A stretch of DNA of 59,184 nt, taken from contig WELB01000006.1 in NCBI GenBank assembly GCA_009602725.1, positions 244,183-303,366 of the forward strand, read 5' to 3'. Below the pieces are notes generated by a model. That model did not search any database, was not told the DNA's origin, and saw only the letters and a list, made by a program, of their open reading frames with translations. This document shows positions 1 through 14,272 of this stretch, piece by piece; the first letter of the stretch is position 1; each line of letters starts with the position of its first letter. This DNA is from Spirogloea muscicola. Its lineage: Eukaryota. The position numbers and the translations under genes are program-made.

Positions 1-126
<126 letters not shown>

Positions 127-245
127 CCCGCCGCCAAGCCCGCCGCCATGGCCGCAGCCGCCACGGCCGCCGGCGGCAGCGCCGAGAGCCCGTCCGGGCC
201 TCGCCGCCCTGACCCGCGCCCGCGGCGGCGGCGGCGGCGGCGCAG

Positions 246-3200
246 TGGAGGAGTTCCGGCGCGGGCAGCGGTACGCCAACTGGAAGACCAACGAGGCCAA
301 CACCGAGGAGGGCCAGGGCGGCCAGGTTCGAGTCCCACCGCCGCCGCCGCCTCCGGCCGACGCTTTTTTACTTAGTCAGACTTCCGAAGAGATGAGATTG
401 CGTCCGCCATTGCCGTTGCGGCGCAGCTGCTGTCGTCGGCGCCCTTCTTCGACGAGGCCTGGGGCGAGGGCCTCTTCACGCACACCCTCTACCGCCTCGG
501 CGACCGCCTCCCGGACTGGGTCCGCCAGCCCGCCCGCCAGCTCGTACATAGCTGTTGTAAACAGATTAAATGAAAGTACGGAGCGACCGTTTGCAGAGGC
601 TTCAAAGTAAAGGAAAAGCCCAAGTGACTTGCCGAGCCCAACGCCACAACGCAACGTCGCGGGACCTCGTGTCAGTAGCCGCTTCTCTCGTCCGTGAGGG
701 TCGAACCCAAGTCTCAAGCTGTGGACTCTCCGCTGACGTCCCCGACGGTGGTGGTGGGCACAGGTGACGCGCCTGGTGCCGGCCAACGCGATGGTGGTCG
801 ACGAGAAGAGCTGGGTGGCGTACCCCCACATGCGCTCCGTGCTCACCATCCCCTTCTTCTCCAAGGTGCGCGCTCCCAGGGCCACTGAGGCCACCTCGTG
901 GAGGTCGGACGGCCAGTCTGAGCCAGTTGTCCATCCTCATGGAGCCTTCGGGGAGGTGGGCGGTCTGCTCTCATGCCCAACTGACCTTGCCGTTGTGCGT
1001 GCTGCAGCTGCGGTACGAGATCACCACGCTCTGCCTCGATGATGACGGGTCGTCAGAGAACGTCCACAAGCTCCCGCCCGCCGAGCTGGAGCAGCGCAAG
1101 GTTGACCGCTTCGACATTGCGGGCGACAAGGTGGCCAACGGCATCTGTCTGAATAATCTCATTGATTGCATCCTGTCTGCCTTGCATTTGCATTGATGGG
1201 CGCAAGTCCTCCGTTGTGCATTTGACTCAATTAGCCCTACACACATGTTAAAGAGAAGAACCTCACAGGAAAGGAACCGTCCCTGCGCTCCTGTCCAAAT
1301 TTGTCTTGTGCACGTCTAGGAATGCTTGGAGCTAAGCACAGCAGTCCTCTGACAAGCATGCCTCTCATCATCCCTTGATAAATTTCCAAAAGCGTCGGGT
1401 CTTAGACTTCACGAGTGTAGAGAGGCGCAATTGCTGAACCCAATGACCAAGTCGCTTGGCTGGTGATTGAGACGCGGTTGTCAGAGGTTTGACTCGCCAT
1501 TGGAGGCAAACTGCTGACCCAGGTTGCACGGCGGGACTACGTGCAGGCGCTTGACCCGCCACTCTTTGCCTCTCAGAAGACAGGGTAGGTGAGCTGCACC
1601 TTTCATATGCTTGCCAGCCCACACTGGGCTGATCACAAGCAGTAGCTAAGGGACAAGTATGTAGTGCTGCATAACTTTGTCGGACAGCAAGCGATCGTTG
1701 TTGAGATCAATTTGATGCTAAGTGTGCTTCTACCGCAGCTACACAGCTATCTGATGCTGATTGCATCAACTGTGCTGGGAGTGATCAGACGAGGCCCACT
1801 GCGCCCCGGGTGGCAGTCGAACACCAAGCCCCTCATGTGCGCCTACAAGCTCGTCAAAGCGCAGGCCAAGTGAGAGCTTTACCGCAAGAGTAGCTCAGCG
1901 ATGCAACTTTCCACCAATCTGACAAACATTTCATATAGTGGGATTTTAATTTTTTTTGGATTCTTAGCAGGGGAACGGACTCCATGTGCCGGTTGAAAGA
2001 ATTTCCAAATATATGCTGTGGCCAAATGCATCAGCAGCTTTCCTCTGCGCTGCAGCAGGCTGCAGCTTTCAGAGCAGAAGCTGATGCTCGCCTCGAGATG
2101 GCATCCATTACAGCTACTGGGGAGTGCAGCGACGTGCAGAGGGCTTCATGATCTCTGGCCTCCGCTCGGTGAGGCCGTGTTCCTCGATGTCACACTTCTC
2201 ATTTCAGCTCATCCTACGCCAACGTTTCTCCTTCCTCTTCATTTGCTGACCACTTCATGCTTCGCTCGCCTTCAATAAGCCCAATTGACTGGCCAAATCA
2301 CTCATCGAGCACTCAATGATGACATGTTTCTGGCCCAGCTGTTTCTGCTCACGCATCGAAATGCTTTCTGCTACATCGATCAATGGTGGAACCTCACGTA
2401 CGAGCAGGTATGAAGGACGACAAGCATCCTGGAGTCAAGAGGAGATTTTAGATTTTAAGCATCCAGCATCCAGCATCCAGCATCCAAGCATTCATAGGTT
2501 CAGAGAATTTTTGGATGGCCAGGGCCACTTGACGACCTGGCTTACATTGACAAGACAGTCAGCTGTTGGGCTTGCCTCATAAGCCTGTGTGTGTGAGTGA
2601 ACATTATTCCTTAGTATCATCGTCTAAACGCCTCAATGCAGATTATGGAGCTTGAGATGGGAGAGAGAGCTGTACTGAACAAGAGAGTGAAGCAGCCCAA
2701 GCTGGTCATCCCCATCGATGGCCTGGCAGTTGAAGAGCAGGTGCAGAAGGATGAATGGGCCAGTGACGATGACGAAGACCTGGACATTGAATTCTTTGAG
2801 GCTGAGGTGAGCAGGCGCAGGTGCCACTGACAGTATCCTTGCTTGGTTGCCAGAAGTAGAGTCAGCCCAAGTAAACGAATGAGCCATAGCTGCTTGCTGT
2901 AGATGCTTTGGTAACACTACCATTTGACTCTTATCTCGCAGGCCGAGTGGGCTGCCCAAGAACAAGAGCTTCTGGAGGGCACCATTGCAGGTCAGAGGCT
3001 GCAATTGTACAATTGCCCTGCTTTCTGTATTGGTTTGCCGTCAACATCTTCAGTCGGAGATGCCAAAATGCTGACTTATAAGCGAGCACTTCATGGCGCC
3101 AGCTATTACACCAGGAGGAGAGGGCTCCACGTACCCAGGCAGAGGACTGGCTCCAACCCATTGCCCAGCTTGTCAGGAGCTCCGTCAGCAGAAAGATGGA

Positions 3201-6120
3201 GAGGCTTGGAGGCCTCCTTCAGTGTATTGCGAGGCTTGCCAAGAGTACTTCTGTCAGGGCTGCTATGCTCAGGTTTGCACAGTAGGCTGCTCAGAGTGCC
3301 AAGGGTCTAGGGCGCAAGATGGCTGCCTGTCACCTTTGTCAGATTGAGGCCAATTACATGAAAGGAAAGATCATTTTGCTGATAGAGCTTATATTCCTGA
3401 AGCATGAATACATACAAAGCACGTTACCAGATGTTGAGGTGCTCACGAAGCCTCTTGCTTTTGCAGATTCATGTGACGATGCAAATGCGGCAGCACCGGT
3501 TGAAGTACTTGGTGCCTACATCAAGCGCGCGGTCATCAACTTCATTGCGGGCACTGCAGCCAATTAGCCTTCAAAGCGGAGGCGCACTTGAGGCTGCTGC
3601 AGCACTGGCTCCAGTTGAGCGTACAGGATCCAGGGAGTCCGCTGGAGTATATGGAGATAATGCTGCAGCGACGCGCTCAGATGAGCAGAAGGTTCTCAGG
3701 GAGTCCTCTGATCCAGTCGAGAATAAGGTATTTCAAGTTGTCTGGCCTCATTGCAATGGAGGAATTTCACGAGGGCACGCCAGTCTCACATGTCGAGGGT
3801 ATGCTTGAGTAGCGCTGTGCAGCTTCGTCAAGCAACCTCCAAAGCTTAGCCTACCAGTTTACGTGCATACATATGCTTGGCAGGGTCTGACACGTGCTGG
3901 CTTGTTTGCTGGTCAGCCCGTTGAGCTCTCGGCAGAGTTGGTGGCTACCATGCTAGGCATATACAAGTACGGCTCTTCGTCCACCTCTTATGCATCTGAG
4001 AAGAGCAGTCTTGGGTACTACTTACTGCATACGACTTACTGGCTTGAAGGTGAAGGTCCAAAGCATTTGCAGGATGTGCAACAAAGCACAAGGTCAGCCT
4101 AAGTGGTCCAGAGTAACTTATTTGGAAGATTGTAATCTATCCGTTGATGCCATTGCAGGAAGCTTCTACCACCAGATCGATCCCCTGCGCAGAAGGCATC
4201 CAGCCTTGACCCGTATGGATCTCGCAGCGAAGTGGCAATTGGCAGCATTGGTCCATATGGGGAGCTAACAGAGGTCTCGTCCATGGGCGACAAGGCGAGC
4301 TCCTCAGTTGTCGCAAAGGAGTGCTTGGTTGCCAGGCATGCTTAATACCTCGTCCTGCCCTAACCATATATCGGCGTTGCATATGTTAAGCACCGTGTCT
4401 GCTGCTGAGAAATTGCAGAAGTGGCCTATTCGCTCGTCAGGGCTGCATATACGAAGCATGTCATTCTCCCACATTGGAGTGCCTGACTTCAGGAGACTTC
4501 TGAAAGGGCATCTGCGATGATAAGAGAGGATTAGGAAGGTGGTGAGGACAGCCTTGTCGCGCTGAGCGCCTTCCTTATGCTGCATTTGAAGTATATGAGC
4601 ATTGTGACTTGACAGGCGTCTGGTGGAACAACTGGTTCATGTCGTTCCTCGACTTCTCACGCATGAGGAGCGCTTGGCTTTCTGGATCAACATCTACAAT
4701 GCACTTCTTATGCAGGTCTTATGATCTTAGAAAATTACCTGTTTGATAGGTTTTATATACCATAGTGTAACTTGCATCTTGATTTGATGTATGGTGCCTT
4801 TGCTGTTGAGGCAGGCCAGAGCCAGCTGGCCACCTTGTGCCACTGAAGAAGACGGCAACTCAGCTTTAGCTGTGCTTCAATGGCAGGCCTATCTTGAGCA
4901 AGGCATACCAGGCAACCACTACAAGCGAGTCAACCTCATGGCAAAGGCCACTTACTCTATTGGCGGGCTCAACTTCAGTGCCCTTCAGATAGAGCACGCA
5001 GTGTTGCGAGCTTGCTCCTCTCGGCCTGCCCTTGTAAATTCCCTCTGCGAACCTCAGAGGCTGTGTGCACGTTGCTTCTGATGATTGTGGAATGATTACT
5101 GTAGATCTTAAACTAGAAAGAATGTTGTGCAGCATCTGTGACTGGTTCATGCTCTGATGCCTTCTTTGCACATATTTCACGCTGACACACGGTTATTCAT
5201 CTAGTGCATAGTTTCTGCATATCTTGAAAATTGCTAGAATGGGTTTCTGCATCTACCTGATCGATTTCATATTGTGCTGTCTGCAGGCTGGTCTTCTGCC
5301 AGTTCACAAGTTCAAGAACTCTGATGAGCGCCTCGCATGTGCCCTGGATCGTCCCGAGCCTCTTGTTAGCTTTGCCCTGTGCTCCGGCTGCAGATCAGCC
5401 CCAGCTGTACGCTACAAAGCCCCACCTAGTGTCTGCTGGAGTGCCATGCAAGGAGCACAACAGGCCTCTCAGTAGCACATCATAGAGTCGTCCAACTAAC
5501 TGCAAGCTTGGCCAAGTAGAGAAGCTCTTCCTGAGACATGCCTGCTGAAACAGGCTGACAGTTCCAATGTGTGTGCAAGTTGACCAGGTCCGTTTGTATT
5601 CGGCGAGCAATATCAGTAATGAGCTGCAACATTCAGCCCGAGACTATCTGCAAGCCGCCATCGGTCTGAGCAAGAGTGGCAGGATCCTCGTTCCAAAGAT
5701 CCTGCACTGGTATGCCAGGGACTTCTCGGACGATGCATTCTCGCTTCTGTCGTGGATCTTTGCGCGGCTTCAGCCCTTGCAGGTATGCTTCGTCCTCTCC
5801 GCATAACATAATTTCTTGGCACAAATTCTAGACATTATTCATTCGTGGTTCAAGTCCAAAGTCGAACTTTTGATACCATGACATTTCACATACTCATTTT
5901 GTGCTCTCTTACTTTGCCAACATGAAGAGCATGCAGTGACAGCAGTGCTCACAATTTGCAACTACTCATCATGGTGTATGCGCCAAACGAGCTGATGTGT
6001 TGTTGCGTGCTCAATAACCAGCATGAGGTCCTTCAAGAGAAGATGCCAAAGAGGCCCAAGGATGCATCCAGGTCTATGCTCGTAGTTCCATACGACTGGA
6101 ACTTCAGGTATGTATTGTGA
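246..6120 (+). CDS. Multidomain protein: START-like phosphatidylinositol transfer protein domain (IP_trans) + acidic tract/FFAT-like motif + B-box zinc finger + DUF547; true 5' end not resolved
   Basis: Hand-spliced in-frame exons: 246-325, 427-519, 764-865, 1008-1130, 1523-1584, 1789-1869, 2114-2168, 2339-2407, 2642-2806, 2942-2990, 3103-3272, 3467-3727, 3917-3966, 4159-4335, 4616-4715, 4887-5033, 5287-5406, 5588-5782, 6022-6120 (TGA). PITP motifs: EEFRRGQRY, GLFTHTLYRL, DEKSWVAYP, ENVHKL, KTGRGPL, MCAYKLV, YWGVQ, HRNAFCYIDQW. B-box: CPAC..CEAC..CQGC..H..H. DUF547: LAFWINIYNAL, IEHAVLR, PEPLVSFALC, VPKILHWY, PYDWNFRY. Confidence 0.85.
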
Positions 6121-7337
6121 GCAATGACTCGTCAACTTTGATAGACCATTGATGGCCCTCCTTTCGACCATCTTCGTGGAGGAGCATGGCACCAGCCAGC
6201 CAGTTTCCCACTCCCACCTTGACAAAGTGGGAATCCCACGTGGCCATTATACAGTATAACAACTCATCTGCGGAGCCCAGGAGGACATGCTACTCCAGCA
6301 TGCCCTGGAAGTGAGGGCTATGACACAAGGAGAAATGGCAGTTGGCAGACATGTATTAGAAGACGAGAGTGGATGGAAGAGCTTTGGAGAAGCTTTAGTA
6401 GCAGAAATTGTCTATTTGGGTCATGGAAGAGAAGTAGCTCTTCCAAAGTAAGTCGATGGGTGTGAGTGACTCCTGGAGTGACCCTTAAGTATGTACGTAC
6501 TAGACAATTGACGCCGTGTCAAGTAGCCGATGGCTCCACAAACCGTCGGATCAAGGAACCTCCCATTATTTACAGGACGTGGCTGCTGATATTGGCAAGG
6601 GGCGGCTATGAAAGTCAGCCATCTTAATCAAGCTCGGCTGCGTGCTCGCAGAGAAGCTCGAGCAGCAACATCATCTCTTCATACGAAGGTCAAGGACCCC
6701 TGGGGAAGACCCACAAGTACTTATATGGAATTCAGGTGAAGAGAATCTTGGTTTTCGAGCCCTGTTTGTGCAGCCAGCGGCTAGAGCAGTTTGCGTCGGG
6801 TAATAAATGACACCGGCACCAACCCAGCCGAAATCGGTGTTGCTGACGGCGGCTCACCGTCACGTCAGGTTCGAGGGAAATGGCGCGAGCCCTTGACGGC
6901 GGCCCCGGGGTCGCCGAGAGCCGCTGATCCCGCGGCTCGGAGGCAGCGCATCGGATGGGCTGCGTGCGTCGCACGGCGCCAGTGAGTCGGCTGGCGACGT
7001 TTGAGGATCGACGGTCCGGGCGGGCCCACGGTGGCCACGTGGCGAGCATCGGAAGGCTCTGCGTGGGGCTCCTGGCCGAGAGAGCTCTGTTTGGCGGAGT
7101 TCGGTGGGCCCGCAGAATACGCCGCGGTCCCCGCCGCCTCTCCCGGCGCACTCCCCGCCGCCGCCGCCGCCAACGCCGCCGCCGCCGCCGCCTCCGCCTT
7201 GGGCCAGCCCTGTCCTGGCGGGCCTCCGGCGGCTGCCGTTCCGTCCTCTATCTCCGCCTGGCTTCTCGCGTGGGAGGTGAAGGCGAGCGAGGCTCGCCGC
7301 CGGCGGCGGCGGGTGTCGCCGCGGGGCTGCCGCCGCC

Positions 7338-12983
<5,646 letters not shown>

Positions 12984-14272
12984 CTCCCACTTAACGGAAG
13001 TATTTCTGGGCGTCTATCACTTGATTACTGTGTCGCAAGCACTAAGGTCGACTGTGGAGCTCCAAGCACTGTGCCTTCCTCGAGTTGTATCCTTCCCGAA
13101 GGTCACGGACAGCCTTGAGCAGCACAGCGAATCTAACATCTAAGCCTGAAACTACAGCTAAGCCTATATGACAATCAGTAGTAGGCGTGCACAGAAAGGG
13201 GGCGGGGGTTGCTCCAAAGAACGTAGCCAGAGTTTTGTCGATTGTCGAAGGCGGCTGGATAAAAACGATGACTTCAGTCTTGGTCCAAGTATTGCAGCGA
13301 TTGATTAAAATCTTGCAATTGTCGTCATAATGCTTTGTTCAGATTCTTGATGAACCTCAGTAACCAGGCTACTATACCAGCTACACTCTCTCCACGAAGG
13401 ACAGTGGTAATCCTCATCCATCCGCGATATACATTAAAGATTGGCCAGAAAGATGGCACCAGTGAACGAGCAAGCCCGCACTCATACCTAGTAACAGGTC
13501 AGCAGCATGCAGCTCAAAAGAAGAAGCAGCAACACTTGCAAAGGGCTGTGAAAAGCCAGCCCACCAAAGGTCGAATAAGGATCTGGGAGTGAGTTAACAT
13601 GCGCAGAGACCAGTAAGGATGTCTGCTCAGAAACCCCCAGTCAGCAGCTGTAAGTTGTAAGTAGCAGCCAAAATGTATAGCTATTGGTTTGGCCATTGAA
13701 GAAGCGAGCTCCAAAGGGGGCCCGAAAGGAAGACTCTTCCAGTGGAGGGCGATGGCTGTGAAAGGCCAGAAGGACCTTTGAAGAAGTTGCTGTTCATTGG
13801 CGTGTTCTCACTCTTGATGTCCAAGATGTGAACTGAATAGATAGAAAGATAGAAAGATCGTGAATGCTGGCTCTTATTCATCATATGGCAGACAAGGCCT
13901 CAAGTTGAGTAAGAGATGTTGTATACGGGATGTTGTTTGAGTGCGCGCGACTGGCGGAAATTTGAATATCACAAAATACCTGCCTACATGGGATTTCTTA
14001 CGATGTGCACGCATACAATTCTCGGATTTTTCCTTTGATACTTCACAATTATCGGGCTTGACAGTTAGCCTCGAACAAAATGCCATCCCTTTGGTTGTTG
14101 GTATTTCTGTTTCTTCTTTGCTGCCTCTTTCGTGGAGGTAGCACCACGCAAGTAGATGTCTAATCAGGCTCTGCTCTTAAGACAGCCATGTAGCATATGG
14201 GTCGCACATTTGCAGCAACCTGCTTTGCACGACCTGCAGTAGAAGCCCTCATCTGTGGACACAGTGGTCCAC

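What the first reader, a model, noticed from the sequence alone, without database searches (positions are those of the whole stretch)
478..830. The PITP domain lacks two of four canonical inositol-binding residues
Seen: an ungapped by-eye alignment to mammalian PITP-alpha puts T59 at T (478-480) and E86 at E (803-805), exactly 27 residues apart, but K61 is T (484-486) and N90 is V (815-817). C95 is M and the F225 position is T (LFLLTHRNAF, class II-like). Phosphate-contacting Q22, T114 and K195 equivalents are kept. Established: K61 and N90 are needed for PI binding/transfer in PITP-alpha, and C95/F225 relate to PC binding. Inference: the domain probably carries a different lipid (PA, PC or a green-lineage lipid) rather than PI.
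Basis: partly seen in the sequence, partly recalled or inferred. Interest (0 to 1): 0.78.

Follow-up and report, generated by a model that had tools for sequence, protein, structure and literature searches.

The report
Moss-algal lipid shuttle lacking inositol site
Algae close to land plants, mosses and liverworts share a phosphatidylinositol-transfer-type protein that has lost key inositol-gripping residues and carries a conserved motif predicted to anchor it to the ER, so it likely shuttles a different lipid, most likely phosphatidic acid, between touching membranes.

Summary
After removing intron 520-763 (joint seen in one probable RNA contig), the PITP domain reads T59, T61, E86, V90, M95, T225, with Q22, T114 and K195 kept. 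The gene is a PITP–B-box–DUF547 fusion, 93% identical to a Spirogloea muscicola protein. The changes mark a whole clade (Mesostigma, Chlorokybus, zygnematophytes, mosses, liverworts): 0 of 20 rows keep K61 and 2 of 20 keep N90, against 125 and 122 of 136 outside. The clade gains N26 (20 of 20 vs 0 of 131) and G40. The fold is predicted to be intact. Physcomitrium and Riccia also hold a separate canonical PITP. Best reading: a likely ER contact-site carrier of a non-inositol phospholipid (not PI about 0.8; PA specifically about 0.45). The ligand is untested, and the new residues might rebuild a PI site.

The parts
246..325 (+). PITP exon encoding helix A: Q22 (266-268) and clade-specific R23 (269-271), N26 (278-280), N30 (290-292), G40 (320-322). 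The upstream first exon is not in the window.
   Evidence: joint 325|427 in X5
326..426 (+). intron, GT..AG
427..519 (+). PITP exon with T59 (478-480), T at the K61 position (484-486), Y63, R64
520..763 (+). 244-base intron, GT..AG; its removal gives the T59-E86 spacing of 27
   Evidence: joint 519|764 in X5, absent from X1-X3
764..865 (+). PITP exon with E86 (803-805), V at N90 (815-817), M at C95 (830-832), S at T97 (836-838)
1008..1130 (+). PITP exon with T114 (1026-1028)
   Evidence: loose end in X5 fits 865|1008
1523..1584 (+). PITP exon
   Evidence: loose end in X5
1789..1869 (+). PITP exon with K195 (1847-1849)
2114..2168 (+). PITP exon with Tyr-Trp at the W203/W204 membrane-docking position (2115-2120)
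2339..2407 (+). PITP exon, helix F, T at F225 (2351-2353)
2642..2806 (+). exon with helix G (lid) and linker; ends in an acidic tract and the FFAT-like core (about 2765-2806)
2942..2990 (+). exon completing the FFAT-like motif
   Evidence: loose end in X5 at 2807
3114..3505 (+). B-box-like zinc finger, two exons (about 3114-3272 and from 3467); outer limits approximate
   Evidence: Pfam score is below the curated cut-off
4614..6117 (+). DUF547 domain and C-terminus over about five exons; limits approximate

Best explanation
The gene encodes a PITP-fold protein fused to a B-box-like finger and DUF547, from an algal and bryophyte clade that has lost K61 and mostly N90; it likely docks on the ER through a predicted FFAT-VAP contact and likely carries a non-inositol phospholipid, most likely phosphatidic acid, to or from a neighbouring membrane. 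Shown: the residue changes, their clade-wide spread, the domain order, the conserved motif, and separate canonical PITPs in Physcomitrium and Riccia sorocarpa. Predicted: an intact PITP fold. Inferred: (1) loss of PI binding, from K61 and N90 mutants of PITP-alpha and RdgB (about 0.8); (2) a phospholipid cargo, from retained K195, T/S97 and T/S114; (3) PA over PC, from C95 to a bulky hydrophobic residue, F225 to T/A and the class II-like layout; (4) VAP binding; (5) B-box/DUF547 as the second targeting module, by analogy of position with DDHD/LNS2 only.
For: Clade tallies over 166 of 174 sequences, near-duplicates included: K61 0 of 20, N90 2 of 20, both lost 18 of 20; outside K61 125 of 136, N90 122 of 136, both lost 6 of 136. 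By genus: K61 lost in 10 of 10, N90 in 9 of 10. Kept in the clade: E86 22 of 22, T/S97 22 of 22, T/S114 22 of 22, K195 21 of 21, W204 20 of 21. The PITP domain is more conserved than the DUF547 part in 4 of 5 comparisons (67 vs 56% to Marchantia). AlphaFold2 model of P0006: 225 of 370 residues at pLDDT 90 or more, Z 30.6, rmsd 2.5 over 257 residues to PI-bound 1uw5. The clade is one side of a branch (SH-aLRT 92; FastTree 0.96), apart from canonical P0159, P0110 and P0171 (names). FFAT-like block in 22 of 22 long members; strict pattern in 14 of 20 derived and 0 of 6 canonical plant-type rows, and in 0-2% of shuffles; it aligns with the Nir2 motif of P0009. RdgB K61A and N90F lose PI binding and transfer while PA transfer is largely unaffected (PMC4582195). 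C95 and F225 matter for PC (PMC8266687).
Against: No lipid binding was tested or modelled. In RdgB the same mutants showed strongly reduced PA binding in cells, and K61A bound more PC. Residues for PA binding are unknown even in class II PITPs. Known class II PA carriers keep all four inositol residues, so their loss does not itself point to PA. N26 and R23 are invariant polar gains that could replace N90 and K61; their position relative to the cavity could not be measured. Q22 is L, Y or F in 4 of 20 clade rows. Position 7 of the motif is not the Glu of the recalled FFAT consensus. No canonical PITP was shown for the window's own genome (none held). The fold was predicted for a relative 66% identical, not for the window's protein. 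The careful tree did not finish.
Confidence: 0.45

Rival explanations
1. Same architecture, but the cargo is another non-inositol phospholipid (PE, PS, PG or PC), read by T59, S/T61, E86 and the new N26.
For: Position 61 is S, T or N in 19 of 20 rows and E86 is invariant, which suggests a headgroup beyond the phosphate. N26 20 of 20 vs 0 of 131. RdgB K61A bound more PC.
Against: For PC: C95 is kept in 2 of 22 rows and F225 in 0 of 19, and both matter for PC. Hydrophobic residues at 90 and 95 probably shrink the polar pocket (inference). E86 is also near-invariant outside the clade, so it is not diagnostic.
Confidence: 0.22
2. The pocket still binds PI: N26 took over from N90 and R23 or water from K61.
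For: V26N with N90V looks like a reciprocal swap. Mesostigma has both N26 and N90, a possible intermediate. T59 and E86 are kept.
Against: Single mutations of any of the four residues impair PI binding; here two are lost and bulk is added at C95, which lies next to the inositol ring. Canonical paralogs can supply PI transfer in Physcomitrium and Riccia.
Confidence: 0.15
3. The domain binds a lipid as a sensor that controls the B-box/DUF547 part and does no net transfer.
For: Fusion to a zinc finger and a domain of unknown function in the full-length members.
Against: The docking aromatics and the lid helix are kept. Calypogeia has a short member, P0006, without motif, B-box or DUF547 that keeps the altered pocket.
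Confidence: 0.1
4. The cargo is a phosphorus-free lipid such as the betaine lipid DGTS, or a glycolipid.
For: Members were found only in streptophyte algae, bryophytes and unnamed rows. Betaine lipids occur in algae and non-vascular plants and are absent from seed plants (PMC10685587 passages).
Against: The phosphate-contact residues are kept. DGTS occurs in some ferns, where no member was found. Absence from vascular plants is weakly tested.
Confidence: 0.07
5. Sequencing error, misalignment or a decaying gene copy.
For: The window starts with a poly-T run, lacks the first exon, and DNA runs show several divergent copies.
Against: Same changes in 10 genera; spliced contig; gap-free alignment to rat PITP-alpha; no stop in the 276 residues joined from nine exons.
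Confidence: 0.01

Closest known systems
Class IIA PITPs (Nir2/PITPNM1, Nir3, Drosophila RdgB-alpha): PI/PA exchangers at ER-plasma membrane contacts
   Same: N-terminal PITP domain followed by an FFAT-type motif in an acidic tract; small residue at 225; no Cys95 in most; Tyr-Trp docking pair.
   Different: They keep T59, K61, E86, N90 and need PI binding in vivo. Their C-terminus is DDHD and LNS2; here it is B-box-like and DUF547. The tree does not group them with this clade.
Class I PITP-alpha/beta (PDB 1uw5, 1t27, 2a1l): PI/PC exchangers
   Same: Same predicted fold (Z 30.6-31.2), about 35% identity, phosphate-contact set kept.
   Different: K61, N90, C95 and F225 replaced; multidomain.
Canonical green-lineage PITPs (Physcomitrium XP_024359613, Riccia sorocarpa KAL3691814, Klebsormidium P0171)
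   Same: Same Pfam family IP_trans; two occur in the same species as the derived clade.
   Different: Keep all four inositol residues and C95; no FFAT-like motif, B-box or DUF547; 35-36% identical to the window's domain; separate branch.
Ups1/PRELID1-Mdm35/TRIAP1 PA transporters
   Same: Next fold matches after the PITPs (4xhr Z 11.8); PA cargo in a related StARkin fold.
   Different: No sequence similarity (10-12% identity); mitochondrial heterodimers. The match says nothing about the ligand here.

Membership tests
StART-like PITP domain (Pfam PF02121) | Profile match above the curated cut-off | tested here: met
   P0001 177.6 bits vs cut-off 21.3; P0167 258.7
StART-like PITP domain (Pfam PF02121) | PITP fold with helices A, F, G around a curved sheet | tested here: met
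   Predicted for relative P0006: Z 30.6-31.2 to 1uw5, 1t27, 2a1l
PI-binding PITPs (class I and II) | T59, K61, E86, N90 all present | tested here: not met
   Window T, T, E, V; 0 of 20 clade rows have all four vs 114 of 136 outside
PI-binding PITPs (class I and II) | Phosphodiester contacts Q22, T97, T114, K195 | tested here: met
   Window Q, S, T, K; T97 is a conservative Ser
PI-binding PITPs (class I and II) | PI binding and transfer activity | not testable with these tools
   Needs recombinant protein
Class I PITP (PI/PC) | C95 and F225 | tested here: not met
   M95 and T225; definition from PMC8266687
Class IIA PITP (Nir2/RdgB) | FFAT motif after the PITP domain | tested here: inconclusive
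   Conserved FFAT-like block at the same place; last position differs from the recalled consensus; VAP binding untested
Class IIA PITP (Nir2/RdgB) | DDHD and LNS2 domains | tested here: not met
   Pfam finds DUF547 and a weak B-box instead
Class IIA PITP (Nir2/RdgB) | PA binding and transfer | not testable with these tools
   PA-binding residues are not defined
B-box zinc finger | Conserved Cys/His ligands and B-box fold | tested here: inconclusive
   Five Cys and two His invariant in 22 of 22 rows; Pfam score under cut-off; weak fold matches to CONSTANS-type B-boxes, Z 6.3, rmsd 2.1 over 49 residues

The most novel reading that the evidence does not exclude
Streptophyte algae and bryophytes evolved their own Nir2/RdgB-like ER contact-site transporter and split the PI/PA exchange between two paralogs: a canonical PITP that carries PI, and this PITP-FFAT-B-box-DUF547 protein, a natural PITP that carries PA (or another non-inositol lipid) alone through a rebuilt pocket (R23, N26, G40) and was later lost in vascular plants.
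Probability: 0.25. Interest if true: 0.85.

Novelty: new variant of a known kind. Interest (0 to 1): 0.68.

Why it matters
The four inositol residues are treated as a hallmark that predicts PI binding in PITPs, and the residues that bind PA are still unidentified (PMC8266687). A natural, well-conserved clade without K61 and N90 would separate PI binding from counter-lipid binding, and its clade-specific residues give direct mutagenesis targets. It also points to an undescribed ER contact-site lipid route in early land plants, which Arabidopsis cannot show because it has no PITP of this type. It is testable in Marchantia (MPTK2_7g02200) and Physcomitrium.

Tried and rejected
No genome is held for this window, so paralogs in the same genome could not be searched; only one PITP gene lies in the window. 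No run is on record as RNA; X5 is RNA by guess. Read-level variants at the key codons remain unseen. No vascular-plant member appeared, but one search also missed the Closterium and Chlorokybus members, so absence is weak evidence. The Atlas gave only generic PITP clusters; a search for the DUF547 part did not complete. The 645-residue model was poor (mean pLDDT 54) and gave no clear fold match for DUF547 (best Z 6.7), which shows nothing about its fold. The ATG at 148 is not in frame with exon 246 through the nearby GT and lacks the first strand, so it was rejected as the start. Seven paper look-ups were not held. PMC11099152, PMC10225987 and 10.1101/152587 gave no useful passages. Look-ups of earlier scan notes gave one unrelated viral PITP note and otherwise nothing.

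Full report
Observation. The stretch 478-830 spans two exons of a + strand gene. Run X5, contigs guessed to be RNA from one study, joins 325|427 and 519|764 with GT..AG ends, and DNA runs X1-X3 do not. Joining nine exons by their splice sites gives 276 residues without a stop. T114 is at 1026, and T97 is Ser. The numbering is secure: the window's exons align without gaps to the liverwort protein P0006, which aligns without gaps to rat PITP-alpha over residues 1-103. I could not see read-level variants at these codons, because one search showed 40 of 513 differences.

The gene. Exon 1008-1130 found one protein among 6 candidates, P0001, 93% identical, recorded as Spirogloea muscicola. The window is therefore probably another copy from that alga or a very close relative (inference). 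P0001 starts at residue 82, so it lacks position 61, but it has V90 and M95. Pfam gives IP_trans, DUF547 and a sub-threshold B-box. The first coding exon is missing from the window.

A clade, not a one-off. Searches with P0001, P0006 and P0002 and name look-ups gave relatives in Mesostigma, Chlorokybus, Closterium, Physcomitrium, Ceratodon, Sphagnum, Marchantia, Riccia and Calypogeia, plus unnamed rows. Of 174 sequences, 166 were aligned; 8 fragments or repeated-domain records were dropped. Isoforms and near-copies are included in the counts. In the 22-row clade, 20 rows cover all four positions: none has K61, 2 have N90 (Mesostigma and P0029), and 18 lack both. Outside, of 136 complete rows, 125 have K61, 122 have N90, 114 have all four and 6 lack both. 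By genus, K61 is lost in 10 of 10 and N90 in 9 of 10. The clade also gains residues: N26 20 of 20 vs 0 of 131, G40 19 of 20 vs 0 of 135, N30 18 of 20 vs 1 of 134, R23 20 of 20 vs 15 of 125. That V26 lines the headgroup pocket is recalled, not tested.

Not a decaying domain. E86, T/S97, T/S114 and K195 are kept in every clade row that covers them, and W204 in 20 of 21. The PITP domain is more conserved than the DUF547 part in 4 of 5 pairs; Chlorokybus is the exception. A model of P0006 from 98 aligned sequences is confident over the domain and matches PI-bound PITP-alpha at Z 30.6, rmsd 2.5 over 257 residues.

A second paralog. Physcomitrium (P0159) and Riccia sorocarpa (P0110) hold both a derived member and a PITP with all four residues; for Klebsormidium only a canonical one was found. 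A quick IQ-TREE run on 48 of the 166 rows puts the 12 derived rows on one side of a branch (SH-aLRT 92), away from the canonical plant rows; the careful search did not finish. FastTree on all 166 agrees (0.96). This fits an old paralog that was freed from PI duty (inference). No canonical copy was shown for the window's own organism.

An acidic tract followed by two aromatics, an acid and Ala/Thr follows the domain in 22 of 22 long members. MAFFT placed it on the FFAT motif of an owl Nir2. A strict pattern matched 14 of 20 derived rows, 0 of 6 canonical plant-type rows and 0-2% of shuffles. In Nir2 and RdgB this motif binds VAP and anchors the protein to the ER; Arabidopsis has 10 VAP27 genes (PMC7889955 passages; 10.1101/2020.10.19.345074 passages). 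The last position differs from the recalled consensus, and binding is untested.

Mechanism. Mutating any of T59, K61, E86 or N90 impairs PI binding; C95 and F225 matter for PC; Q22, T97, T114 and K195 bind the phosphodiester; PA residues are unknown (PMC8266687 passages; PMC2635478 passages). RdgB K61A and N90F lose PI transfer and largely keep PA transfer (PMC4582195 passages). Against a simple PA reading, the same paper reports strongly reduced PA binding in cells for these mutants and more PC on K61A. Taken together, I put loss of PI binding at about 0.8 and PA carriage at an ER contact at 0.45. Another phospholipid gets 0.22, a rewired PI site 0.15, a sensor role 0.10 and a phosphorus-free lipid 0.07. 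The last rests only on overlap with the range of betaine lipids (PMC10685587 passages). The role of B-box and DUF547 is unknown; a second targeting role is an analogy of position.

Novelty. Ten searches (listings and abstract starts) found no paper on this clade, on the PITP-DUF547 fusion or on Mp7g02200. A review states that Arabidopsis lacks this PITP type, and a rice survey lists one IP_trans gene (PMC10255633 passages). PMC2577659, PMC12979188 and 10.1101/2025.05.16.653879 (passages) added nothing on it. The library lacks most subscription journals, and the main structural papers and the 2011 family review were not read, so an earlier mention is possible. No supplements were read. A few unrelated protist PITPs also lack both residues, so such loss has probably happened more than once.

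Verdict. A real, clade-wide variant of the PITP family with an altered headgroup site and an RdgB-like layout. It fails the PI-binding hallmark and is not a class I or class IIA member by the tested features, but it likely works like a class IIA contact-site carrier. New variant of a known kind; interest 0.68.

Noticed in passing
window ~9200-13000, + strand: A second DUF547 gene with no PITP match follows the PITP-B-box-DUF547 gene, forming a tandem DUF547 pair.
   Followed up: no
window 1-123: Poly-T run at the start of the window; the first coding exon of the PITP gene is missing, and the public model of the sister copy P0001 also lacks its first 81 residues.
   Followed up: partly
window 125-6300: DNA runs X1-X3 hold several divergent copies of this gene (many contigs at 85-95% identity), as expected of a polyploid or duplicated genome.
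   Followed up: no
P0136/P0156, P0042, P0085, P0078/P0163: Unrelated PITPs from Leptophrys, Stenamoeba, Vermistella and an unnamed source also lack both K61 and N90, which suggests independent losses.
   Followed up: no
P0006 vs P0169: Calypogeia has a short 370-residue clade member without the FFAT-like motif, B-box or DUF547, beside a full-length one; it has N61, I90 and keeps C95.
   Followed up: partly
P0029: An unnamed metagenome protein is the deepest branch of the clade: PITP, B-box-like cysteines and DUF547, with Q59, A61 and N90. Its organism is unknown.
   Followed up: no
P0025, P0146, P0014: PITPs with LNS2-type domains or an FFAT-like pattern that group with a Diphylleia protein, suggesting RdgB-like architecture outside animals.
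   Followed up: no
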